Shown here in pieces: positions 7,305-31,963 of a DNA stretch of 64,000 bases. How positions within the stretch are numbered: the first letter of the stretch is position 1; every line of letters starts with the position of its first letter. The stretch lies in assembly GCA_039794365.1 (NCBI GenBank), contig JBDIVN010000007.1, positions 44,389 through 108,388 on the forward strand, in the 5' to 3' direction. Below the pieces are notes generated by a model, which saw only the letters and a list, made by a program, of their open reading frames with translations, was not told the origin of the DNA and searched no databases. Source of the stretch: Vampirovibrionales bacterium (GTDB lineage Bacteria; Cyanobacteriota; Vampirovibrionia; Vampirovibrionales; Vampirovibrionaceae). Made by a program: the position numbers and the translations under genes.

Positions 7305-9308
7305 TCATCTGGAAGAGGCGGCTGGCGTATTGGGCACCATCATCACTTCAGGCTGGATGATGACCACCATCTCCCGGTCCCGGCGATCCGACCACTTGTT
7401 GCGGAAAAAGGACCCGATGATCGGGATGGAGCCGATACCCGGAAACTTGCTGGCGGCATCGGTTTCCTCCTGGTTAAACAGGCCGGCCATCACGAAGCTC
7501 TGGCCTTCCTCCAGTTCCACGGTAGTCTGGAAGCGCCGCGTAGCGAAGCCGGGCACCACCACCTGGTTGGTGGAGACGGAGTTGGCGTTGTCCACGCTGC
7601 TGACCTCCGGGGCGATCTGCATATGGATCTTCCCGTCGTCCTTCACGGTGGCCACCAGGTTCAGGCGGATGCCGAACTCGTGGAATTGCACGGAAATCTG
7701 ACCGTTGGTCCCGATGACCGGAATGGGGACCTCACCCCCGGCCAGGAAACTGGACTTCTCGCCGCTGAGCATGGTCAGGACGGGTTCAGCCAGGGTGCGG
7801 GCCTTGCGGCGCTCCACCAGAGCGCTGATGGCCAGAGCATGCTTCTGGTTCAGGGTCAGGAACTGGGTCACCCCGTCACCGAAGATGGGGTTCACCCCCG
7901 CCCCGAAGGAGGCGGTTCGTGAAACGGAGTCCGCTGCAGCATTCCCAGAGGTTCTGTTCAGGGTCTGCCCAATAATGCTGCCCGTATCCTGGGGATCGAA
8001 CGTAGCAATCGGCTTACCCGGAGCGGGTGACTGGGTGCCGCTAAAACTGCCCACGCCCACGTCGCCGTAGTTGGCCAGGTAGTTGGAACCCAGTTGCTTG
8101 AGGGCAGTGCGGCTCACGTCAAGAATCTTGACCCGCGCCCGGATCTGGGGACGGTAGGCCACTTCCAGCATACTCACCACGTTGCCCGACGCATCGGTAA
8201 TAATCGACCCCTGCAGGATGTTGATGTCCATGTTGTCGTTGAATGAGTTGGAACTCTGGAACTGGGCGTTCCCCGTCGGGCGCACCGCGTTGCCGCCGGG
8301 ACCGGTGACCACCTGCAGGCCGGGCTGCCCGTAGAAAATACTGGCCGTGTTCACCGCCTTGCTCACATGGGAAGCCATGCGCACCTTGCCGGTCAGCAGC
8401 ACTTTTTCCACACCGTCCGAACCGGGCACCACCTCCATCTCGATGCTGGGATCAATCTCCTTTAGCATCTCGCGCACGGCCTGGGCCTTGGTGGACGGCT
8501 CGCCCTGGATCTCAATCAGGTTGATGATGTTGGGGGCCGAACCCGGTGTCGCCGTGCCGGGAGACAGGCTGCTCTGCTGAACCGTTCCGGCGGTCCCCGC
8601 GTTTCCCGCAAAGTAGGCCCGCGAGATTTCCACCGCCAGTTGGGACTGTTCGCGCGACTCCGCCATGCCGGTGAGAATGACCGAATCCACCGCCGCCATG
8701 GGCATCACGTTGATGCGCGGATTGATCATGCGGATCTGCTTGGCCAGCACGGAAACATCGCGGTGGACGTTGATGTCAATCACCGCGTACTTGTCCGGCT
8801 CGTTGTTGTCCCAGATGAGCAGGTTGGCCACGCCCACGCTGTTGCCCACGAGCTGGATCTGGGTGGGTGAGATCACCACGACGCTGGCGATCTCAGGGTT
8901 GCTGATCGCGACCCGGCTGGTTGGGTTGTTCAGGTTGATGATGTGCGCCTTGCCCAGAGTGAGGTCCACCTCTTCCAGGGTGGCGGTCAGTCCGCCCTTG
9001 ATGAGGGTTCCCGGCGAGGTCAGGTTTTGGGCTTTCAGGAAGTGCTGGCCCGGCAGCCGGTTGTCGGCGTTGCGATCCATCACCGGCTCAGGGAACTTCT
9101 GCTTGGAGACAGCCGGAATGGCCGCCGTCCTCAATTCTTTCGGTTCAGCCCTCTTTGCCGTTGGCGTCACGACCTCCATTTTGGCCTTGTCCAAAAAGGA
9201 TACCGGAATCTGCTCCTCCTCACCGTACACCATGGTACGGCTGGGTCCCACAGTCATCAGCACCACCAGGCTGCTTAAGAGAAAAGCAGCAAACTTCTTG
9301 CATTTCAT
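7305..9308 (-). CDS. cpaC: Tad secretin CpaC/RcpA (outer-membrane channel)
   Basis: Signal peptide. C-terminal secretin domain motifs (VVPGFATRRF...GQSFVMAGLF...PGIGSIPIIGSFF). At 667 aa it is long for the family and has Gly/Ser/Thr-rich insertions. Confidence 0.85.
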   Translation of the reverse strand: MKCKKFAAFLLSSLVVLMTVGPSRTMVYGEEEQIPVSFLDKAKMEVVTPTAKRAEPKELRTAAIPAVSKQKFPEPVMDRNADNRLPGQHFLKAQNLTSPGTLIKGGLTATLEEVDLTLGKAHIINLNNPTSRVAISNPEIASVVVISPTQIQLVGNSVGVANLLIWDNNEPDKYAVIDINVHRDVSVLAKQIRMINPRINVMPMAAVDSVILTGMAESREQSQLAVEISRAYFAGNAGTAGTVQQSSLSPGTATPGSAPNIINLIEIQGEPSTKAQAVREMLKEIDPSIEMEVVPGSDGVEKVLLTGKVRMASHVSKAVNTASIFYGQPGLQVVTGPGGNAVRPTGNAQFQSSNSFNDNMDINILQGSIITDASGNVVSMLEVAYRPQIRARVKILDVSRTALKQLGSNYLANYGDVGVGSFSGTQSPAPGKPIATFDPQDTGSIIGQTLNRTSGNAAADSVSRTASFGAGVNPIFGDGVTQFLTLNQKHALAISALVERRKARTLAEPVLTMLSGEKSSFLAGGEVPIPVIGTNGQISVQFHEFGIRLNLVATVKDDGKIHMQIAPEVSSVDNANSVSTNQVVVPGFATRRFQTTVELEEGQSFVMAGLFNQEETDAASKFPGIGSIPIIGSFFRNKWSDRRDREMVVIIQPEVMMVPNTPAASSR

Positions 9309-20225: not shown

Positions 20226-23200
20226 CTATACCCCGCTCTTGAGCTTCTCGACATACTTTCGCACCACATCCGCATTGCTGGCGTTCGGCGAGAGGCTCAG
20301 AAACCGCTCCAGGTGGACGATGGCGTTGGACTTGTCTCCCATCTTGGAGTATATAAGACCCAGGTTGTAGTGGGCCGGACCGAAGTTGGGCCGGATGGAA
20401 AGGGCCTGCTGATAGGCATTCCTGGCTTTCTGCAAATCGTTGGTGGCGTTGTACAGGTTGCCCAGGTTGAAGAGCAGATCGCTGTCATTGGGGTTCAGGG
20501 AGAGGGCTGTCAGGAAGATGCGCTCCGACTCGTCCATACGCCCCAGCTTCTTCAGGGTGGTGGCGTAGTTGTTCAGCACGCTGACGGGAATAGCCATCGC
20601 AAAGGCTTGTTGGGCCTCTTCAAGACGTCCGCTGAGGAGATAGGCCTTCCCCAGAAGGTTATAGCCCTCCAACTCGTAGGGGTTGTTGGTGAGGAAGAGT
20701 TCGAGAATCCGGGTGGCTTCCGCCGGATTGCCGGTCTTGAGCAACCCGTCGGCATACGCCGTCACGTAGCGGGTCACGTCGGACTCCAGCTTGTAGGCGT
20801 CGCGGTACAGCACCGTGGCTTCCACGATCTTGCCGTTGTCCTCCAGCTCTTTTCCGCGGATATAGAACTCTTCGGCACGAGGGTTGGCGCTGGTGGTAGG
20901 CTGGCGCTGCTGCAACCGGCGAAGGGCCTCTTCCAGGGAGGCATTTTTCGCCGCCGCCTGCCGAAGCTCCTCGTTGAGCCGGGCAATCTGGGCATCATTG
21001 CCGCTGGAGCCGCCGGCCTGCGCACGGGCCTGGGAGAGTTGCTGCTGGAGGGTATCGATCTGGGAGCGTGAATCCTGGTAACGGCGGTTGGCTTCCGCCA
21101 GTTCGGACTGCAGACTGGCCAGGCGGCCCTGTTCACCGTCCAGTTGCTGCCGCAGGGCAATGTATTCCGGCGACTGCGTCACGGGCGTATCGTTTGCCGG
21201 ACGGGATTCCAGACTCGCAATCCGTTGCTTCAGGGTGTCATTCTCCCGCAGGGCGGCCTGGTAATTGCGGTTGGCCTCCTCAAGCTGCTGCTCCAGCCGG
21301 GCCAGTTGGGACTGGTAGCCGGTCAGGCGGCTTTCCTGACTGGCCAGTTGCTGCTGCAAAGCGATGTACTCCGGCGACTCCTCCACCGGCGTCTGTTGGG
21401 TCGAATCCGCCTGAAGACCCGCCACCTGCTGCTTCAATGCCTCGTTGCGGGCCACCGCCACTTTATAATTCTCGGCGGTCTCCCGCAATTCCTCGCGCAG
21501 GCGGGAAAGCTGACCCTGCTGATCCTCGAGCTGCCGTTGCAGGGCGATGTACTCCGGCGACTCCTCCACCGGTATCTGTTGGGTCGAATCCGCCTGAAGA
21601 CCCGCCACCTGCTGCTTCAATGCCTCGTTGCGGGCCACCGCCACTTTATAATTCTCGGCGGTCTCCCGCAATTCCTCGCGCAGGCGGGAAAGCTGACCCT
21701 GCTGATCCTCGAGCTGCCGTTGCAGGGCGACGTATTGGGGCGACCCCTCCACCGGCGCCTGTTGGGTCGAATCCGCCTGAAGACCCGCCACCTGCTGCTT
21801 CAATGCCTCATTTTGGGCTGTCGCCATCTTATAATTGCGGGTGGTCGTCTGCAACTCATCCCGCAGGCGGGAGATTTCCTCCTGCTGGCTTGAAAGCTGC
21901 GTTTGCAGGGCAACGTATTCAGGCATCTGCTCCACCGGTGGCCGGTAGGTGCTTTCCGCCTGCAGGGCGGCCACCTGGGACTTCAACACCTGGTTCTGGC
22001 GCTGCACGTCTTCCAGATTACGGATACGGCCCTGCAAATCACCCAGCTGCTTTTCGTATTCAACCAGTCGTGACTTCTGGGCCTGGGTTTGTTCCTGTAA
22101 AGCAAGATACCGGGGAGACTGCTCCACCGGCGTTGGCTTGACCGAAGCCTGGGACTGCATGGCCTTGAGTTCCGCCTGCAAGGCCTCCTTTTCCCGGATC
22201 GCATTCTCATAGTCCCGGCTCAGGGCCAGATACTTGGGATTCTGCTCCAGCGGCGGCGGCGGGATAATCCCATGGGTTCGCGCCGCGCTGAGATCCGCCT
22301 TCAGCTGATCCGCCTCGTTGACCTTGGCGAGATACTTGCGGCTCAGTTCGCCCATCTGCTCCTGAATCTTCTGAGCTTCGGAGATCGCGCCCTGCCGGTC
22401 GGCACGGGCCTGTTGAAGATCACTTCGGACCGAGTCGAGCTGGTCCTGAAGCGCTTTCCTGTCCGTCTCCACGGCATTCAGGGCCGCCTGAACCTCATTC
22501 ACCTTTGCCTGCAGGGTCCGGACCTGATCGCTCTGGGTGGCGCGGGCCTGCTGAAGCTCCTGGCTGGCCTGTTGAAGTGCTTCGCGGGTCTGCCCGAGTT
22601 TTACCTCCATATCGGATTTCTCGGCGCTCAGAGTGTTTTTCTCTTTCTCCGCGGCATTCAGGGTCGACTGAAGCTCCTCCACTTTTGCCTGCAGGGTCCG
22701 AACCTGATCGCTCTGGGTGGCGCGGGCCTGCTGAAGTTCCTGGCTCGCCTGCTGCAACTTCGCCTGCAAATCGGATTTTTCAGTACTCAGGGCCGTCAGG
22801 GAATCCCGCAGGCTTTTGACCTTTTCCTCGGTCGGCCGCTCCGCCAGGGCCTCTTTTAACTGGCTGTTCTCGGAGCGGGCGGTCAGCAGGGCCTCCTCCA
22901 TAGCGTTTTTCGCCTTATGGAGAGCCTCCAGTTGCTCATTCATCGCCGCCAGCGCCCGTTTCAGCCGGGTCAGCTGCTCCTCTCCCTCCTGGCCGTCAGC
23001 CAGCTGCTTGCGCAGGGTATCCACAGACATCCGAAGGCCGGAGTTCTCGGCAGACAGGTTCTTGAGCGCATCCTCCCGCTGGGCCAGACGGGCTTCCGTC
23101 TCCTCCAGCTTCTGGCTTAGCGCCGCCACCTGTTGCCTGGCCGCTGCATCCATCCCCTGACGCACCTCGTTGAGCTGCTCGGTCAACGCGGCGATTTCCT

Positions 23201-25329: not shown

Positions 25330-26448
25330 CTAGGCCAGTTTCAGGGCTGGCCCTGACGGCAGCGGGATCGTTTTCCCGGACAGGGCCTCTTCGGCCAGTC
25401 GCTTGAGATCCGGGTTGGGCTTGTTGAAGAAGTTGAACCAGCCTTTGCCCGCCGCATTTTTCAGAACCTTTTTCATTTCCTTGTCGTCCTGGCGGTTGAT
25501 CACCTGCCACGCCTGGATGGCGGCAGCACGGACGTCCGGGTTCTCGTTCTTGTCCTGGACCACCTGCTTGATCACATCCAGGCCGGGAAGATTCTTGGTG
25601 GGCACACTGGCATTCTGGGAGGCATTCAGCATACCCAGGGTCCAGAGGGCCGCCTGGCGGACGTAATTGGCATCATCCTTGGCCTGTCCCTGCAAATGGC
25701 TGGTGTCGGCCAGGGCCTCACGCTTCAGAAGATCGTAGGTTTGGGCGGTTCCATAACCCCGAACACCGATCTCCTCCATCGCATCCACCCGCTCCTGCAG
25801 GGTGGAGGGTTGGTCAATCAGAGCGTTGAGCTGCTCTACATCCGCCGTCTTCAGGCCGGGCTGCTGGGGTTGCTGCGGCGGCTGAGGCTGCTGCGGATAC
25901 TGATCCACGGGCGGCTGGGGCTGCTGTGGGTATTGATCCTGCGGGTACTGGGGATACTGGGCATACGGGTCAGGGTACTGTCCCGGATACTGCGGATATT
26001 GCCCAGGATACGGGTAGGCCCACGGATTGGGCTGAGCCTGGAACGGACTCGGATAAGGCTGTTGCTGTTGATAGAAGGGAATCTGCTGCTGGAAAGCGGT
26101 CGCGTTCATCTGGTTCGCCAGGTTCAAATAGGAATTTCTCGCCTGTTCAGCCAGATTCTTGGCATTCAGCGCCTCGGCATACGCATTCTGAAGCGCCTGC
26201 TGCGGGTTCATCGACGGGAACATGTTGTTGTAGTTCGCCGGATAGGCCGCAGGGGCGGAACTGGCCGGGGCGCCATAAACGGAAGCCGGCGGCGCGGCAG
26301 CGGGGCCGTAAGGCGATGCATAGGGCGACGGAGCCGCAGCAGGACCAATCTGGCCAGGGACGGCGCCGCCCGGAAAGTTCTTCGGCTCGATGATCTGGAT
26401 ATTCACCGCCGACGAAGTTTGAGGTAATTGAGGATAAGCTGTGACCAT
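25330..26448 (-). CDS. Pro/Gln/Tyr-rich low-complexity protein with C-terminal HEAT-like repeats
   Basis: N-terminal ~200 aa dominated by QYPQYPGQYP / QPQPPQQPQQ repeats and AAPxxYG motifs. C-terminal ~150 aa has HEAT/PBS-lyase-like helical repeats (YVRQAALWTLG, DVRAAAIQAW). First gene of the AMIN/TPR cluster. Confidence 0.55.
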   Translation of the reverse strand: MVTAYPQLPQTSSAVNIQIIEPKNFPGGAVPGQIGPAAAPSPYASPYGPAAAPPASVYGAPASSAPAAYPANYNNMFPSMNPQQALQNAYAEALNAKNLAEQARNSYLNLANQMNATAFQQQIPFYQQQQPYPSPFQAQPNPWAYPYPGQYPQYPGQYPDPYAQYPQYPQDQYPQQPQPPVDQYPQQPQPPQQPQQPGLKTADVEQLNALIDQPSTLQERVDAMEEIGVRGYGTAQTYDLLKREALADTSHLQGQAKDDANYVRQAALWTLGMLNASQNASVPTKNLPGLDVIKQVVQDKNENPDVRAAAIQAWQVINRQDDKEMKKVLKNAAGKGWFNFFNKPNPDLKRLAEEALSGKTIPLPSGPALKLA

Positions 26449-26767: not shown

Positions 26768-26794
26768 GTGACGCCTGAAAATGGCTGCTATAAT
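26768..26794 (+). promoter_or_regulatory. candidate sigma70-type promoter upstream of grpE
   Basis: Perfect TATAAT at 26789-26794 with an imperfect -35 (GTGACG/TGTGAC) 15-16 nt upstream, about 80 nt before the grpE ATG. No CIRCE inverted repeat is visible. Confidence 0.3.
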
Positions 26795-26871: not shown

Positions 26872-27498
26872 TTGCCGATGGCACAGGAACAACAACAGGA
26901 GACGGTACCGCAACCTTCAGAAACGAAGGGGCCGCACGAAACGCAAGAAGCGGAAACAGACGTCCATGAGGAGCTGCCGCCTTCGGGCAACAGCCTGCAG
27001 GAGCGGTTCGACGTGCTGCAGGATCAGCACATGCGCCTGGCGGCGGATTTCGAGAATTTCCGCAAGCGGGTCCTCCAGGAGCGGGAAGCCCTGCTGAAAT
27101 ACGGAGCCGAAAATACCATCCAGTCGCTTCTGCCCATCCTTGACAACCTGGAGCGGGCCTCATCCAGCCTGTCCGAAGGATCGGACCCGGCCATGCTCTA
27201 CAAGAGCTTCGAACTGCTGAGCAAACAGCTGATGGACACTCTGGCCTCCCAGGGGCTGAAGAAGATTGAAACCGTGGGCCAGCCTTTTGATCCTAATTTC
27301 CATGAGGCCACCGGCCAGATGGAAACCGATGAATATCCGGAGAACACGGTTGCCCTTGAGGTCCAGCCCGGCTTCCAGCTCCATGACCGGGTGCTTCGCC
27401 CGGCGCTCGTGATGGTGGCCTCCAGCGGCAGCGGCGAGGAAAACCCAGCCCCCTCCGAAGCCGACAGCCGGGAGAACCCGTTCGCCCAGTCCGAATAG
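26872..27498 (+). CDS. grpE: nucleotide exchange factor GrpE
   Basis: GrpE signature region LQERFDVLQDQHMRLAADFENFRKRVLQEREALLKYGAENTIQSLLPILDNLERA. Typical length with an acidic C-terminal tail. Confidence 0.9.
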   Translation: MPMAQEQQQETVPQPSETKGPHETQEAETDVHEELPPSGNSLQERFDVLQDQHMRLAADFENFRKRVLQEREALLKYGAENTIQSLLPILDNLERASSSLSEGSDPAMLYKSFELLSKQLMDTLASQGLKKIETVGQPFDPNFHEATGQMETDEYPENTVALEVQPGFQLHDRVLRPALVMVASSGSGEENPAPSEADSRENPFAQSE

Positions 27499-27543: not shown

Positions 27544-28701
27544 TTGATGAGCACCGCCAAACGCGACTATTACGAAATCCTCGGCGTACAGCGCAACGCC
27601 ACCGCGGAGGAAATCAAGAAGGCTTTCCGCCGCAAGGCGAAGGAATATCACCCGGACGTGAACAAGAGTCCGGACGCCGAAGGACTGTTCAAGGAACTCG
27701 GCGAAGCCTTCGACGTGCTCAGCGACGACCAGAAACGACAGGTCTACGACACCTACGGCCATGATGGCCTGCGTTCCGGCGGCTACCAGACCAACTGGGA
27801 CTTCATGCAGGGCTTTCCGGATCTCAACGATCTGTTCGCCTCCTTCTTTGGCGGCGATTTCGGCTTTGCCGCCAGCCGGCGCCAAGGCCCCCACCAGGGG
27901 GACGACCTGCGTTTCGATATCGAACTCGACTTCATGGAAGCGGTTTTTGGCGCGAAGAAAGAGGTGGAAATCCAACGCCTGAACCGGTGTGCTCCTTGCA
28001 GCGGCACCGGCTCAACGCCGGGGTCAGGTGCCAGCATCTGCCAGACCTGTGGCGGCGGCGGCCAGATCCGTCAGACCACCCAGACCATCATCGGCCACTT
28101 CACCCAGATCACGGTCTGCCCGCGCTGCCAGGGGCAAGGACAGGTGATTACGGACCCTTGCAAGGACTGTCACGGCCAAGGCCGGCTCCAGGGCGCCAAA
28201 AAGCTCACCATCAACATTCCTGCCGGTGTGGACCGGGGCACCCGGCTCCGGGTGGCCGGCGAGGGCAACGCCGGGTATCTGGGAGGCCCCAACGGGGACC
28301 TCTACGTGGTGGTCAACGTCAAGCCCCATCCGGTATTTAACCGGGAAGCGTACAACCTGATGTCCGTCCAGAACGTCCCCTACTCCATGATGGTTCTGGG
28401 CGGCGAGGTGGAGGTGCCGGTTCTGGAAGGTACGTCCCGGATCAAAATCCCGGCAGGCACCCAGAACGGCCACGTTTTTACCCTGAAACAGCAGGGGGTT
28501 CCCCACCTGAACAATCCCAGCCGACGCGGCGATCATTTCATCCAGGTGCAGGTCAACATTCCCACCCGCCTCAGCGGCGAGGAAAAAAAGCTGCTGGAGC
28601 GTCTCAACGAGATCGATCGGGAAAAACAGCGCCAGGAAGACCGCCATGCGGCCTCGACGCTGTTCGACCGGTTCAAGGACGCCCTCTCCGGGAGTGCCTA
28701 A
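27544..28701 (+). CDS. dnaJ: molecular chaperone DnaJ
   Basis: J domain (DYYEILGV...HPD), G/F region and four CxxCxGxG zinc-finger repeats, with C-terminal domains. Confidence 0.95.
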
Positions 28702-28709
28702 GTTAGCTG

Positions 28710-29402
28710 ATGGGTAGGTTCAAATGCCGTTTTGCTGTAGGAAGCCCAACAGGCTTACGGTCAGGGGCGTTCACAGTTTGGACAAGCAGGAATGATATTT
28801 ATATTGCGGGCCGTAATATCGGCGGCTCTATGAAAACTAGTCTGCACGAGTCAGGCAAACGCCACAGTGGTTTAACTAGCACATTTTTTCAAGAGCCTGG
28901 AACTTTGGAAATGTGGGGCCTTGCCAATAGACATGCTGATGAATGGATAGGGGGTTATCAAATTAGCGAAACTACAACTTTGGAATTTGCCATAGCATTT
29001 CCAAAGTCTGATCTTCGGCTTTTCAGCGACCCAAAACTCAATCCAAACAAAATCAAATGGCTACCTGAACCTCCCCAAGGCTGTCATCTTGAAGTAGCTT
29101 TGTTGATAGAAACTGAGCCTTCAGATACAGAAGAGTGGCCTGGAAAAACTATAATGGGGACTCAATTCTTAGACAGCTATGTTTTGCCCGATGGGAGGAT
29201 CCTATGGCTCGTGTATCATTCGATCCCAGAATCGCCCACTCCCAAATCTATACACGAGGAACTTAAACTCGTCATTAAAAAATCTATGCAAGCAAACCCC
29301 AACATGCAATTTACGGGCGGACACAGACTAATTGTGGGCCAAATAAGCGATGACGGAGTCAGGTGCTACGTTGACCTTGCAGCGGATAGATATAATAACT
29401 AA
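28710..29402 (+). CDS. orphan hypothetical protein encoded in a low-GC insertion
   Basis: 230-aa ORF (possible start at MKTSLHESG, ~28830) in a ~0.7 kb segment markedly AT-richer than its flanks. No recognisable motif. Confidence 0.4.
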   Translation: MGRFKCRFAVGSPTGLRSGAFTVWTSRNDIYIAGRNIGGSMKTSLHESGKRHSGLTSTFFQEPGTLEMWGLANRHADEWIGGYQISETTTLEFAIAFPKSDLRLFSDPKLNPNKIKWLPEPPQGCHLEVALLIETEPSDTEEWPGKTIMGTQFLDSYVLPDGRILWLVYHSIPESPTPKSIHEELKLVIKKSMQANPNMQFTGGHRLIVGQISDDGVRCYVDLAADRYNN

Positions 29403-29419
29403 CCGCTTCGGGAAATTTT

Positions 29420-30190
29420 CTACTCGGCGGGCAGGTTGAAAGCGCCGCCGAAGTCGATGTTCACCGTATCGCCCGGCTCAATGGTGGCAGACTCACCCTT
29501 GCCCACGAGGGCCATCACGCTTTTCCCCGCCGTCACCGCGGTTCCCGCAAAAACTCCGCCCACCACGGCAGCCGGCACCGTGACGATCTTGCCCGCCCCC
29601 CCGGCAAGGTCCTCGCCCGCCTGGGAACCGGCATCCTTGAAACGGCCCAGGGTATTCACGCCACTCTCAAAACTCTTGTGGATCTTGTACCCGACACCGG
29701 GATCGTCGTAAAGGGCAAACTCCGCCTCGCGGGTTCCCGGCCTTCTCACCCGCCTGACGGCATCGTTTTTGGCGGAGAGGTCCAGATCCAGCGGCATGAG
29801 ATCGCCGGTGGGCAGCACCACGTGGTCAAAGGTCAGCAGGATGGTTCCGCCCCGGCTGAAGAGGCCGGGCTTTTTCACGGCATCCACCCGTCCCCGGACC
29901 AGGGTGCCCCGCGGCAGGATCACCCGCGAATCCCCGTCCAGGCCGGGGGCCTTGAAGTCCTGCTGGATAAATGCGGTAAAAGGCTCCCCTTCCGTGGAAA
30001 TACGCGAATCCAGCTCCGAGTTGAACCGGACCGTCAGCATGGTCCCCGCCGGCACCTTCTGGGACCGGGTGTCCAGTTTCAACGACGTGGTCGGCAGGGC
30101 ATCCTGGCCCCAACCCGGTGTAATCCCCGCCAGGAGACACACTGCCACCGATGCAATCATCAAACGCCGTCCAGGGTTCCACATGCGCAT
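29420..30190 (-). CDS. secreted hypothetical protein (signal peptide)
   Basis: N-terminus MRMWNPGRRLMIASVAVCLLAGITPGWG is signal-peptide-like. Mature protein is beta-rich and Gly/Val-rich with no known motif. Confidence 0.5.
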   Translation of the reverse strand: MRMWNPGRRLMIASVAVCLLAGITPGWGQDALPTTSLKLDTRSQKVPAGTMLTVRFNSELDSRISTEGEPFTAFIQQDFKAPGLDGDSRVILPRGTLVRGRVDAVKKPGLFSRGGTILLTFDHVVLPTGDLMPLDLDLSAKNDAVRRVRRPGTREAEFALYDDPGVGYKIHKSFESGVNTLGRFKDAGSQAGEDLAGGAGKIVTVPAAVVGGVFAGTAVTAGKSVMALVGKGESATIEPGDTVNIDFGGAFNLPAE

Positions 30191-30235
30191 TATCCTCTCA
30201 ACTCGTATCTCTCTTATTGTACAGGACAATTCCGC

Positions 30236-31963
30236 TCAGGTAATCTTGGACTCGTTGATGTCGCTGGACATGGCCGCTTCACGGTAGAACTCGCACATTT
30301 CGAGATACCGGCGGCGCATGATTTCAAGCACCTGGTCAAAACGCGGACGCTCCTGGGGGCTGGCAGCCAGCTTGGTGTACTCCCGCCATGTTTCAATTTC
30401 AAGCACCCGGCGGCGCAGTTCGTCCACGTCGGTCTGGGTGGGCGTATAGCGGTGGCTCTGATGAAATTCGGTAAGCCGGTCGACGCCGGTCAAATCCTGG
30501 GCAGCCTTGAGGATGCAGATAAAAATGGAACGCTGCCATGACAAGGCGCTTTCCCGCGAGGCCTTGGGAAGATCGTTGATATTGCTGTCGAGGGAGCCGA
30601 TATAGGACTTGAGCCGGTCCAGCAGGGTCTCCTTTTCGGGACGGACCTCCAACACCTTGTGAGGACTGAGCAGCAGGGGGTCCGAATTGACCAGGGAAAG
30701 GGCCGCCACCTGGGCATAGCGAGCCACTTCATCATGATGGCTGAAGAGGTGCAAACCGTTGACCCCCCATTCCACAGCCACTTCCTTGGTGAGGGCCTGC
30801 TTTTCCAGCAGGTAGTCGCTGACCTTGTCCACCGCGGCACGATCCGGATATTCACCCTCCACCATCCGGTGATAAAGCGCTTCCGGCGGTTCCTGAAGCC
30901 CCGTCTCCCGGCAGGCTTCCTCCCAGGCTGCCTTGCGGATGCCGAACATGCCGCTGTCCAGATGGGTTTTTGAAATGGCCTCAACCAGGCTGGGAGGGAA
31001 GGGCAGAGGAGCCACACCCTTGGACGGAGCAGCCAGGCGCTGCTGATGCCGGTCCCAAAGTTTTTCCCTGAGCTGCGTGCCGAGATCCTCGCCATACTGC
31101 TGGACGATCTGCAGGGCCACCTGGTCATAAATAAAGCGTTCCGAGACAAAACGCGAATCGTTATTGACCGAGAGGGCCTCCACAATCCCTGAAGCGAAGG
31201 TTCGCGGACCGAACCCGCTGCCCTGGACGTAGTTGGCTATGCGGGTGCGAAACTCCGGCTCGTTAAGAATATGCCACGCAATGGCGCTGCCCATGATGGG
31301 ATGGGTGGACAGGTTATCGATGGACAGGGTGGTCTCGAACTTGGGATCGTGCAGCCAGCCGACAAGAGCCGACTGCAGCACCTCAGGCCGGCAGGCGTTC
31401 TCATCCATGGCCTTGACCACGCACAGACGGCTGACCTGCGAGGAGTGGTGGACCACGTCCGGGTAGCCCATAGAATAGAGGGCCTTGACGGTGCGGGCGA
31501 CGAACTGCTCGTAGATACCCGCCTCATCTTCGGAAAAACCGAAGAATTTCCGGAAAAAGTTGACCGTGACCGTATGCTGGCCCTGCAGTTCCATGAGAAA
31601 CAACTTGGCCTCGTCCATGTAGGCGTCCGCCGGTCGGTTCTCGATGATGACCCGTGGCAGCTTCTTGGCCAGGGCAAAGTGGTTCATCACCCGCGCCTTG
31701 GCCAGGGCCAGGCTGCGGATGAGCTTTTGCACGTCACGATCACCTAATACCTTGTCTTCCAACTCTTCCGGCGTAAATCCGATCTCTGCCATCCGTCGGC
31801 AGAGTGCAAACAGCGCAATAAACTGCCGGACCATCTCGCGGTCCGCAAAAAAGCCGGGGGCATAGTAGTCGGTTAGCTGACTACCGCCTGCCAAGCCTCT
31901 TCGCAGATGCTCCAACGTCCTAAGCTTTGGCGTGTATAAACCATGGAATCTCGGATGAGCCAT
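30236..31963 (-). CDS. hypothetical protein (575 aa; possible degenerate HD-type fold)
   Basis: Long ORF with clean coding appearance. The HH....(30 aa)...WLHD spacing resembles HD-domain metal ligands, but the match is weak. Confidence 0.45.
   Translation of the reverse strand: MAHPRFHGLYTPKLRTLEHLRRGLAGGSQLTDYYAPGFFADREMVRQFIALFALCRRMAEIGFTPEELEDKVLGDRDVQKLIRSLALAKARVMNHFALAKKLPRVIIENRPADAYMDEAKLFLMELQGQHTVTVNFFRKFFGFSEDEAGIYEQFVARTVKALYSMGYPDVVHHSSQVSRLCVVKAMDENACRPEVLQSALVGWLHDPKFETTLSIDNLSTHPIMGSAIAWHILNEPEFRTRIANYVQGSGFGPRTFASGIVEALSVNNDSRFVSERFIYDQVALQIVQQYGEDLGTQLREKLWDRHQQRLAAPSKGVAPLPFPPSLVEAISKTHLDSGMFGIRKAAWEEACRETGLQEPPEALYHRMVEGEYPDRAAVDKVSDYLLEKQALTKEVAVEWGVNGLHLFSHHDEVARYAQVAALSLVNSDPLLLSPHKVLEVRPEKETLLDRLKSYIGSLDSNINDLPKASRESALSWQRSIFICILKAAQDLTGVDRLTEFHQSHRYTPTQTDVDELRRRVLEIETWREYTKLAASPQERPRFDQVLEIMRRRYLEMCEFYREAAMSSDINESKIT

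What the first reader, a model, noticed from the sequence alone, without database searches (positions are those of the whole stretch)
28702..29419. About 0.7 kb low-GC insertion carrying an orphan ORF immediately after dnaJ
Base composition drops sharply to under 50% GC (tta/aaa/ata-rich codons) exactly between the dnaJ stop (28701) and the stop of the convergent gene at 29420, against a ~62% GC background. The single ORF (up to 230 aa) has no recognisable motif. This pattern is typical of a recently acquired orphan gene, small toxin/immunity remnant or miniature island.
Basis: seen in the sequence. Interest (0 to 1): 0.55.

Follow-up and report, generated by a model that had tools for sequence, protein, structure and literature searches.

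The report
Foreign single gene inserted after dnaJ
A single, intact, recently imported gene of about 0.7 kb sits exactly between the chaperone gene dnaJ and its neighbour in a Vampirovibrio-like bacterium; it belongs to a large uncharacterised protein family that elsewhere lies beside anti-phage defence genes, making it a candidate new defence gene rather than an orphan or a remnant.

Summary
Window 28702-29419 has 45% GC against about 60% and is the lowest stretch in 64 kb. ORF230 (28710-29402, +) has GC3 0.41 against 0.74 ± 0.075 in 41 other ORFs.

It is a true insertion. Three relatives (DnaJ 87%, 69% and 59% identical) have only 17, 10 and 5 nt between the convergent dnaJ and 269-aa-gene stops. 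Nucleotide homology to the closest relative breaks at 28696 and resumes at 29421. An independent assembly reproduces both junctions.

In 8 of 10 genomic contexts, homologues sit in defence islands or mobile elements: CBASS with Hachiman, pAgo, type IIG R-M, E1-E2/JAB, an integrase element, and a temperate Gordonia phage.

No transposon ends, tRNA, promoter or terminator were found. The gene starts 8 nt after the dnaJ stop, so it is probably co-transcribed with grpE-dnaJ.

Most likely this is a recently acquired stand-alone conflict or defence gene; its biochemical mechanism is unknown.

The parts
28697..29420 (.). Inserted segment: the maximal interval with no homology to the closest relative. 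The net insertion is about 701 nt.
   Evidence: blastn of L090 against the window gives homology blocks that end at 28696 and restart at 29421. That leaves 724 nt in the window against 23 nt in L090. Empty sites of 17, 10 and 5 nt are seen in L090, L091 and L002. GC is 0.45.
28702..28709 (+). 8-nt leader (GTTAGCTG) between the dnaJ stop codon and the ORF230 start. It has no room for a promoter and no well-spaced Shine-Dalgarno sequence.
   Evidence: Sequence. The only promoter-like hit (28770-28799) lies inside the ORF, and no terminator-like site lies between dnaJ and the ORF.
28710..29402 (+). ORF230: an intact 230-aa member of a large uncharacterised family. Near-invariant residues are K42, S44, H46, R74, W79, Y31 and P98.
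   Evidence: ORF. 924 homologous representatives align from residue 3-6, which validates the ATG at 28710. Alignments A1 and A2 and conservation over 150 sequences. AF2 pLDDT 94.2, pTM 0.90. GC3 0.407.
29403..29419 (.). 17-nt spacer between the ORF230 stop and the stop of the convergent gene. It has the same length as the whole intergenic spacer in the closest relative and may be the ancestral spacer.
   Evidence: Sequence and alignment with L090/L091. No terminator-like site here.
27544..28701 (+). dnaJ, the left flank. It is intact and is the probable source of transcription into ORF230.
   Evidence: ORF. Pfam DnaJ/DnaJ_C/DnaJ_CXXCXGXG on the identical gene in L001. The C-terminus is conserved with L090...DALSGSA* against ...DALSGSV*.
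26872..27498 (+). grpE, the first gene of the grpE-dnaJ(-ORF230) co-directional block.
   Evidence: ORF and Pfam GrpE in L001. The same grpE-dnaJ order is seen in L002 and L091.
29420..30229 (-). Convergent 269-aa (or 254-aa) lineage-specific gene, the right flank. It is intact.
   Evidence: ORF. 78 homologues, named Vampirovibrio/Vampirovibrionales where a name is given, with no Pfam domain. The C-terminus ...LPAE* is conserved in L090 and L002.

Best explanation
SHOWN. A segment of about 701 nt, consisting of essentially one gene, was inserted by horizontal transfer into the 5-17-nt spacer between the convergent stop codons of dnaJ and a lineage-specific 269-aa gene. This happened in a ~60%-GC Vampirovibrionales bacterium after its split from its closest sampled relative. 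The gene (ORF230) is intact. It belongs to a large, sporadically distributed family of ~230-aa soluble proteins. That family has no model in Pfam, NCBIfam, PHROGs or PADLOC and no solved structural relative. The donor had a much lower GC content, and the codon usage has not yet adjusted to the host.

INFERRED. (1) In other genomes family members lie next to confirmed defence systems, on integrative elements, or in the accessory region of a temperate phage. The gene is therefore most likely a stand-alone conflict gene of the anti-phage defence or abortive-infection type. (2) The gene has no promoter of its own, starts 8 nt after the dnaJ stop, and has no intervening terminator. It is therefore most likely transcribed by read-through from the grpE-dnaJ operon and translated by re-initiation or coupling. 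(3) The near-invariant D29/Y31/R35/K42/S44/H46/R74 residues sit on neighbouring strands of the N-terminal beta-sheet, there are several invariant Trp residues, and the family is basic (median pI 9.2). Together these suggest a site that binds or cleaves a phosphate-bearing ligand (a nucleic acid or nucleotide) without a metal-chelating acidic cluster. (4) No transposon or integrase hallmarks were found, so the insertion probably arose by illegitimate recombination of a short fragment, or by trimming of a larger insert.
For: Insertion and foreignness:
- Composition and codon statistics.
- Empty sites in L090 (DnaJ 87%, 269-aa gene 83%, 575-aa gene 80% identical), L091 (DnaJ 69%) and L002 (DnaJ 59%), with otherwise conserved synteny.
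- Homology breakpoints at 28696 and 29421.
- Both flanking genes end at the same residues as in relatives.
- The independent Logan assembly L001 is 100% identical over 7,419 nt across both junctions.
- Other family members have host-like GC, so low GC is not a property of the family.

Real gene and family:
- 924 / 298 / 9 representatives at E <= 1e-3 / 1e-10 / 1e-30, mostly full length.
- Signature residues.
- AF2 pLDDT 94.2.
- No library model.

Conflict context:
- L084 lies between CBASS (cyclase 1e-115, 4TM effector 2e-100) and Hachiman (HamA 1e-88, HamB E = 0).
- L082/L083 lie beside an IS110 transposase, YaaC, patatin and an E1-E2/JAB gene (8e-71).
- L085 lies beside an ABC ATPase and a PDC-S45 protease, with an AlpA-type gene nearby.
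- L088 lies directly after a pAgo fragment (1e-63).
- L094 lies between a type IIG R-M gene (2e-132) and an RmrA/CapP-like gene.
- P0002 lies on an integrase/Prim-Pol/Fic/DUF2326 element.
- L086 lies after a VWA-PP2C-kinase triad.
- Gordonia phage BeeGee gp32 lies between the tail genes and the integrase. Comparable central regions of actinobacteriophages carry prophage defence genes (PMC9262239).

Expression: no promoter or terminator between dnaJ and the ORF.

No mobility hallmarks.
Against: - No function has been demonstrated for any member of the family.
Two of them (L093 and the window itself) are uninformative.
- The window's copy sits in a housekeeping operon and not in a defence island.
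- Phage and mobile-element contexts are equally compatible with an anti-defence role.
- No PADLOC model matches, although PADLOC includes many candidate systems.
- The window's protein is not basic (pI 6.4, against a family median of 9.2).
- The proposed ligand site is deduced from the sequence and the secondary-structure register only, because model coordinates could not be inspected.
- Co-transcription with dnaJ is inferred from spacing alone.
Confidence: 0.6

Rival explanations
1. The gene is an anti-defence or other fitness gene of mobile elements (for example a phage-derived inhibitor or a sponge for immune signals) that happened to land in this chromosome. On this view it does not defend the host.
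For: One member is carried by a temperate phage. One lies on an integrase/Prim-Pol element. The protein is a small single-domain protein with no known domains. Conserved Arg, Lys, His and Trp residues could equally bind a nucleotide signal.
Against: The family is nearly absent from sequenced phages (1 of 50,697 records) and absent from 72,556 plasmids with three divergent queries. It was not found in IMG/VR with the window protein. Most contexts are chromosomal defence islands beside complete defence systems.
Confidence: 0.2
2. The gene is an ordinary accessory gene unrelated to conflict, for example a stress-related or metabolic protein that benefits from co-expression with grpE-dnaJ.
For: The window's copy is embedded in a heat-shock operon. 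L093 has transporter-type and housekeeping neighbours.
Against: None of 80 other dnaJ loci carries a family member, so there is no functional link to dnaJ. 8 of 10 contexts are defence or mobile-element contexts. The sporadic, singleton-rich distribution is typical of mobile cargo.
Confidence: 0.1
3. The gene is a selfish, homing-type free-standing gene that inserts itself precisely into intergenic spacers.
For: The insertion is almost exactly one ORF, sits in a 5-17-nt spacer between conserved genes, and has no repeats or duplication.
Against: No nuclease or other homing-endonuclease domain is found in any of 62 members, and there is no PDB fold match. Homing needs a donor with homologous flanks, which conflicts with the strongly foreign codon usage. 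Family members occupy unrelated sites elsewhere.
Confidence: 0.05
4. The gene is ancestral and was lost from relatives, or the locus is an assembly chimera or binning artefact.
For: Only three comparator genomes exist and all are MAGs or metagenome contigs. The closest is still only about 80% identical at the nucleotide level.
Against: GC3 is 0.41 against 0.74. Loss would require three independent, exact excisions that leave both stop codons in place. Host genes flank the insert on both sides within single contigs in two assemblies, one of 169 kb from NCBI and one of 7.4 kb from Logan, and these are identical over 7,419 nt.
Confidence: 0.04

Closest known systems
Single-gene cargo of defence islands and prophage 'morons' (stand-alone anti-phage genes found by guilt by association)
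   Same: It is a small, sporadically distributed gene that is compositionally foreign here. Homologues lie beside CBASS, Hachiman, pAgo, type IIG R-M and E1-E2/JAB genes, on an integrative element, and in the accessory region of a temperate phage.
   Different: It has no homology to any PADLOC v2 model, candidates included, and no phenotype is known. The window's copy is not in an island; it is inserted alone at the 3' end of a chaperone operon.
Bacterial gasdermin-like effectors paired with a protease (~250-aa, beta-rich)
   Same: The size and beta-rich architecture are similar. A subset of members sits next to serine proteases: BeeGee gp31 and the L094 SDH_protease gene are 42% identical to each other, and L085 has a trypsin-like PDC-S45 gene.
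Metal-independent RNase toxins of the BECR type (Barnase-EndoU-ColicinE5/D-RelE), which have Lys/Arg/His/Ser/Tyr active sites
   Same: The near-invariant polar set is K, S, H, R, Y and R with no acidic metal-binding cluster, and the family is basic. This resemblance comes from general knowledge and is not a tested match.
   Different: There is no sequence or fold match. The protein is larger (230 aa, two sub-domains). No antitoxin or immunity gene is adjacent.
Insertion sequences, MITEs and integron cassettes
   Same: It is a discrete insert of about 0.7 kb in an intergenic spacer.
   Different: There is no transposase, there are no terminal inverted repeats and no target-site duplication. Only 17 nt lie downstream, too few for an attC site. 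No tRNA or integrase lies nearby.

Membership tests
Any curated protein family (Pfam-A 2025, NCBIfam 20.0, PHROGs v4, PADLOC-DB 2.0.0) | A significant HMM match for the protein or for its homologues | tested here: not met
   The window protein has 0 hits at E <= 1 in all four libraries. Among 62 family members there are 0 Pfam and 0 NCBIfam hits, and only single chance-level hits in PADLOC (GajB, 0.0053) and PHROGs (0.0095).
Horizontally acquired genomic islet | Composition and codon usage deviate from the host genome | tested here: met
   GC 0.447 against 0.599 (z = -4.6). GC3 0.407 against 0.739 ± 0.075 (z = -4.4). CAI 0.376 against 0.691.
Horizontally acquired genomic islet | An empty site in related genomes with conserved flanks | tested here: met
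   L090, L091 and L002 have 17, 10 and 5 nt between the convergent stops, with synteny conserved on both sides.
Defence-island-associated gene family (guilt by association) | Homologues are recurrently located next to known defence systems or on mobile elements | tested here: met
   5 loci have PADLOC-confirmed defence genes within three genes (L082, L084, L085, L088, L094). 2 are mobile elements (the P0002 element and phage BeeGee). 1 follows a VWA-PP2C-kinase triad. 2 are uninformative. The sample is small and no systematic score was computed.
Anti-phage defence system | Protection against phage infection when expressed | not testable with these tools
   This requires plaque or efficiency-of-plating assays.
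Insertion sequence / MITE | A transposase, or terminal inverted repeats with a target-site duplication | tested here: not met
   No inverted or direct repeat lies at the borders. The longest border-spanning pair (I1) sits inside dnaJ and the 269-aa gene. No transposase domain was found.
Toxin-antitoxin module | Two adjacent co-directional small genes (toxin plus antitoxin) | tested here: not met
   The insert holds one ORF. The other ORFs of at least 40 aa inside it are short overlapping frames. No conserved partner was found across 9 loci, apart from a protease in 2-3 of them.
PD-(D/E)xK nuclease | A D...(D/E)xK motif on an alpha-beta-beta-beta-alpha-beta core | tested here: not met
Bacterial gasdermin | A gasdermin fold and an adjacent protease | tested here: not met
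   No PDB structural match above noise. No Pfam Gasdermin hit. A protease is adjacent in only 2-3 of 10 loci, and not in the window.
Homing endonuclease gene | A LAGLIDADG, GIY-YIG, HNH or His-Cys box domain | tested here: not met
   None of 62 members has a Pfam match.

The most novel reading that the evidence does not exclude
ORF230 represents a new family of stand-alone anti-phage defence proteins. On this reading the family (at least 900 clusters at 50% identity) has a fold not seen in any solved structure, and its active or ligand-binding site is built from a beta-strand K-x-S-x-H motif plus conserved Arg, Tyr and Trp residues. A subset may work together with an SDH/ClpP-type or trypsin-like protease.
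Probability: 0.35. Interest if true: 0.7.

Novelty: new variant of a known kind. Interest (0 to 1): 0.5.

Why it matters
The insertion itself is an ordinary horizontal-transfer event, although an unusually clean one: a single gene dropped into a spacer of 5-17 nt, with a documented empty site. The value lies in the gene. It flags a large, completely unannotated protein family. The family has a confidently predicted fold that matches no solved structure, a sharp conserved polar signature, and a neighbourhood pattern dominated by known anti-phage systems. That combination is the profile from which new defence systems have repeatedly been validated. If a defence role is confirmed, it would add a new single-gene immune protein and probably a new biochemical activity. 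The window's copy would also be a rare example of such a gene wired into a heat-shock operon in a predatory or parasitic Vampirovibrionales lineage.

Tried and rejected
- The word-indexed homologue search with the ORF found only the protein itself. With the 62-sequence profile it found only 15 proteins. The exhaustive HMMER search was needed.
- The search for related loci failed with the family alignments A1 and A2, because no stretch is conserved enough.
- The single ORF found nothing in metagenome contigs or viral contigs.
- The 269-aa neighbour found nothing in metagenome contigs.
- The afdb50 fold library was unavailable, so no comparison with the AlphaFold database was possible.
- tblastn against plasmids with three divergent members found no match.
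- A second phage search found only BeeGee again.
- Rfam found nothing on either strand of 28400-29700. There are no tRNAs in the window.
- No CIRCE heat-shock operator is present in the window, so heat-shock regulation of the operon could not be supported.
- Border repeats: none are meaningful.
- N-terminal extensions of longer members carry no Pfam domain. Two members have a CxxC...CxxC zinc-ribbon-like segment.
- The idea of a conserved 185-aa upstream partner (L094 and L088) was rejected, because the two proteins are unrelated. One of them turned out to be a pAgo fragment.
- The other GC dips in the window (58.2-58.8 kb and 11.0-11.7 kb) are intergenic or host-like.
- The literature probe for a protease plus unknown-protein defence pair found nothing.

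Full report
1. THE OBSERVATION

The composition drop is real and sharply bounded.
- In 300-bp windows, GC falls from about 0.61 to 0.43-0.45 between about 28700 and 29400, then returns to 0.63.
- In 700-bp windows tiled across the whole 64 kb, 28701-29400 is the minimum at 0.449. The next lowest is 0.511.
- Among 693-bp windows the mean is 0.599 (sd 0.033); the ORF itself gives z = -4.6.
- One ORF fills the interval: 28710..29402, + strand, 230 aa, ATG start. dnaJ stops at 28701 and the convergent gene stops at 29420-29422.

The shift is a codon-usage shift.
- ORF230 has GC3 of 0.407. The 41 other non-overlapping ORFs of at least 150 aa have 0.739 ± 0.075, with a minimum of 0.581 (z = -4.4).
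- Its window-trained CAI is 0.376, against 0.691 ± 0.074 for the others.
- The other GC dips in the window are normal intergenic regions or host-like small ORFs.

2. IT IS AN INSERTION

The window comes from a ~60%-GC member of the Vampirovibrionales.
- The nearest genome by DnaJ is a Vampirovibrio MAG.
- Where a source names the organism, homologues of the 269-aa neighbour are labelled Vampirovibrio or Vampirovibrionales, with two labelled cyanobacterial families.

Three relatives keep the same synteny (HEAT/PQ-rich gene, grpE, dnaJ, convergent ~260-aa gene, 575-aa gene, ATP synthase) but have no gene after dnaJ.

| Locus | Identity to window | Gap between the convergent stops |
|---|---|---|
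| L090 | DnaJ 87%, 269-aa gene 83%, 575-aa gene 80% | 17 nt |
| L091 (GCA_029262635.1) | DnaJ 69% | 10 nt |
| L002 | DnaJ 59% | 5 nt |

- At the nucleotide level, homology with L090 ends at window 28696 and resumes at 29421. That is 724 nt in the window against 23 nt in L090, a net insertion of about 701 nt.
- Both flanking genes end at the same residues as in the relatives.
- The window's right-hand spacer (29403-29419) is 17 nt, the same length as the whole spacer in L090.
- An independent Logan assembly (L001) is 100% identical over 7,419 nt and spans both junctions. This argues against an assembly chimera.
- Loss from relatives is rejected, because of the foreign codon usage and because it would need three exact excisions.

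3. NO MOBILITY OR RNA HALLMARKS

- No terminal inverted repeats or target-site duplication.
- No Rfam family on either strand.
- No tRNA anywhere in the window.
- No transposase or integrase domain.
- The insert is one ORF plus an 8-nt leader. How it was inserted therefore remains an inference: either illegitimate recombination of a short fragment, or trimming of a larger insert.

4. THE GENE IS REAL AND IS NOT AN ORPHAN

- The word-indexed search found only the protein itself.
- The exhaustive HMMER search over 1.84 billion representatives found 924 at E <= 1e-3, 298 at E <= 1e-10 and 9 at E <= 1e-30. Most are 220-260 aa and align from query residue 3-6 to about 225.
- This validates the ATG at 28710. 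An internal start at M41 would remove conserved residues.
- The best hit is only 41% identical, and no closer relative exists in the metagenome or IMG/VR scans. The donor is therefore unknown.
- Across 150 representatives the signature is K42 and H46 (99% each); S44, R74 and W79 (97% each); Y31 and P98 (95% each); G49, P144 and W117 (90-91%); and D29, R35, W24, R7 and F8 (84-87%). numbers the positions one lower because the first residue was trimmed.
- There is no hydrophobic segment. The family's median pI is 9.2, while the window's copy has pI 6.4.
- Family members in other loci have GC close to their flanks, at 0.53-0.63. Low GC is therefore specific to this recent transfer and is not a property of the family.

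5. NO KNOWN FAMILY OR FOLD

- No Pfam, NCBIfam, PHROGs or PADLOC model matches the window protein.
- None matches any of 62 members, apart from two isolated chance-level hits.
- A family profile finds nothing among PDB sequences.
- AlphaFold2 with the 62-sequence alignment gives a very confident model: pLDDT 94.2, pTM 0.90. It has a beta-rich N-terminal part (strands 5-11, 21-26, 29-34, 41-45, 50-55, 75-80, 89-98, 125-134) and a beta-beta-alpha-beta-beta C-terminal part with a long helix at 179-195.
- Foldseek against the PDB gives only noise, with TM <= 0.21.
- In the viral structure library the single real hit is A0A8A5LJB3 (212 aa, E = 1.4e-16, TM 0.73/0.79). Its length equals that of Gordonia phage BeeGee gp32. 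gp32 is also the only tblastn hit among 50,697 phage records, and it matches the family HMM at E = 3e-36.
- The AlphaFold-database library was unavailable.

6. WHERE THE HOMOLOGUES LIVE

Ten independent contexts were examined.

| Context | Neighbours |
|---|---|
| L084 | Between a CBASS pair (cyclase 1e-115, 4TM effector 2e-100) and Hachiman (HamA 1e-88, HamB E = 0) |
| L082/L083 | After an IS110 transposase; followed by a YaaC-family gene; near patatin and an E1-E2/JAB fusion (8e-71) |
| L085 | Near an ABC-type ATPase (Ppl/LmuB-like), HATPase_c/TCAD9 genes, a trypsin-like PDC-S45 protease (9e-19) and an AlpA-type regulator |
| L088 | Directly after the C-terminal part of a pAgo (1e-63), cut by the contig edge |
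| L094 | Between a type IIG R-M enzyme (2e-132) and an RmrA/CapP-like gene (7e-25) |
| P0002 contig | Integrase, Prim-Pol, AAA_25, Fic, DUF2326 element |
| L086/L087 | After a VWA-PP2C-Ser/Thr-kinase triad |
| Phage BeeGee (L089) | Between the minor tail protein and the tyrosine integrase |
| L093 | Noisy contig; copy frameshifted; uninformative |
| The window | Housekeeping grpE-dnaJ operon |

- For BeeGee, the Hatfull review notes that Cluster N mycobacteriophages carry prophage-mediated defence genes in the variable central region next to the immunity and integration genes (PMC9262239). BeeGee gp32 lies in a comparable position; this is an analogy.
- Eight of the ten contexts are defence or mobile-element contexts.
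- An all-against-all comparison of neighbours found no universal partner.
- The only recurring neighbour is a serine protease. BeeGee gp31 and the L094 SDH_protease-family gene are 42% identical (E = 1e-90), and L085 has a trypsin-like gene.
- None of 80 dnaJ loci from other genomes carries a family member, so there is no functional link to dnaJ.
- The family is absent from 72,556 plasmids with three divergent queries.
- Most clusters are metagenomic singletons labelled 'hypothetical protein'.

7. HOW IT MOST LIKELY WORKS

Shown: ORF230 is an intact, foreign, single-gene insertion from a large unannotated family that co-locates with defence systems.

Inferred:
- (a) Role. It is most likely a stand-alone conflict or defence gene. 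I put this at about 0.4-0.45, in line with my recollection of the validation rates of earlier guilt-by-association screens (general knowledge, not checked here).
- (b) Expression. The start codon lies 8 nt after the dnaJ stop. No promoter-like or terminator-like site lies between them; the only promoter-like hit (28770-28799) is inside the ORF. There is no well-spaced Shine-Dalgarno sequence: GGGAG ends 15 nt upstream of the ATG. The gene is therefore probably transcribed with grpE-dnaJ and translated by coupling or re-initiation. No CIRCE operator was found, so heat-shock control is not established.
- (c) Chemistry. K42, S44 and H46 alternate on strand 41-45 and should face one side of the sheet. 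In the hairpin with strand 29-34, D29 and Y31 should be their cross-strand neighbours, and R35 and R74 lie at adjacent strand ends. This constellation of Lys, Ser, His, Arg, Tyr and Asp, with no acidic metal-binding cluster, several invariant Trp residues and a basic family pI, suggests binding or metal-independent cleavage of a phosphate-bearing ligand (RNA, DNA or a nucleotide). This is the weakest step, at about 0.25. It rests on sequence register only, because model coordinates could not be inspected.

8. COMPARISON WITH KNOWN SYSTEMS, AND NOVELTY

- In kind, this resembles the single-gene cargo of defence islands and prophage morons.
- It is not a member of any curated family, of any PADLOC system or candidate, or of any of the following classes: insertion sequence or MITE, toxin-antitoxin module, PD-(D/E)xK nuclease, gasdermin, or homing endonuclease. 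Each was tested and the defining features were not met (see the membership table).
- The insertion event is ordinary. The family is uncharacterised and structurally unmatched.
- I rate it a new variant of a known kind, with interest 0.5.
- The most novel reading not excluded is a new stand-alone defence protein with a new fold and a K-x-S-x-H/R site: probability about 0.35, interest 0.7 if true.

'Recently acquired' is correct and is now documented by empty sites.
- 'Orphan' and 'remnant' are wrong. The gene is intact and belongs to a family of at least 900 clusters at 50% identity.

Noticed in passing
L089 3890-4852 (Gordonia phage BeeGee gp31) and L094 6386-7366: The genes adjacent to the family member in a Gordonia phage and in an unrelated metagenome contig are 42% identical over 322 aa (E = 1e-90). 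The L094 gene is Pfam SDH_protease (PF01972), and neither gene has a PADLOC match. L085 also has a trypsin-like protease (PDC-S45) two genes away from its family member. A protease may be a partner for a subset of the family.
   Followed up: partly
L088 216-773: The ORF directly upstream of family member P0004 is the C-terminal part of a prokaryotic Argonaute (PADLOC pAgo_II, 1e-63, profile positions 603-724 of 724), truncated by the contig edge. The family member could be a pAgo-associated gene at this locus.
   Followed up: partly
P0100 and P0153 (family members of 308 and 309 aa): Two members carry an N-terminal extension of about 80 aa with CxxC...CxxC spacing that looks like a zinc ribbon. 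P0153 has only a weak Zn_ribbon_InsA hit (E = 0.0038). Other 'long' members look like mis-called starts.
   Followed up: partly
window 30236-31963 (-): A 575-aa protein with no Pfam or NCBIfam match is conserved in relatives (80% identity in L090, 51% in L091). It always lies between the 269-aa gene and the ATP synthase beta/epsilon genes. It appears to be a lineage-specific conserved gene of unknown function.
   Followed up: no
window 29420-30229 (-): The convergent 269-aa gene belongs to a family of at least 78 clusters with no Pfam domain. Where a source names the organism they are mostly Vampirovibrio or Vampirovibrionales. The N-terminus is hydrophobic and signal-like and the C-terminal part is Gly/Ala-rich. 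The annotated start differs between sources (254 aa in NCBI against 269 aa for the longest ORF).
   Followed up: no
window 25330-26448 (-): A 372-aa protein has a long Pro/Gln/Tyr-rich low-complexity N-terminal half and C-terminal HEAT repeats (HEAT_2, 1.4e-7). It is conserved upstream of grpE in L002 and L091.
   Followed up: no
L093 7998-8698: The family member on this contig is split into two overlapping HMM hits (7998-8465 and 8399-8698). This is either a frameshifted pseudogene or a long-read assembly error; the contig has many short ORFs.
   Followed up: no
window 22527-22571 and 22707-22751: A 45-nt direct repeat (95.6% identity, 180 nt apart) showed up when L001 was aligned with the window. 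It lies inside the large minus-strand gene upstream of the HEAT-repeat gene and probably reflects an internal protein repeat.
   Followed up: no
window 26786-26794: An extended -10-like TGCTATAAT lies about 80 nt upstream of grpE, in a 420-nt low-GC intergenic region. The consensus scan called no sigma-70 promoter there, and no CIRCE element is present.
   Followed up: partly
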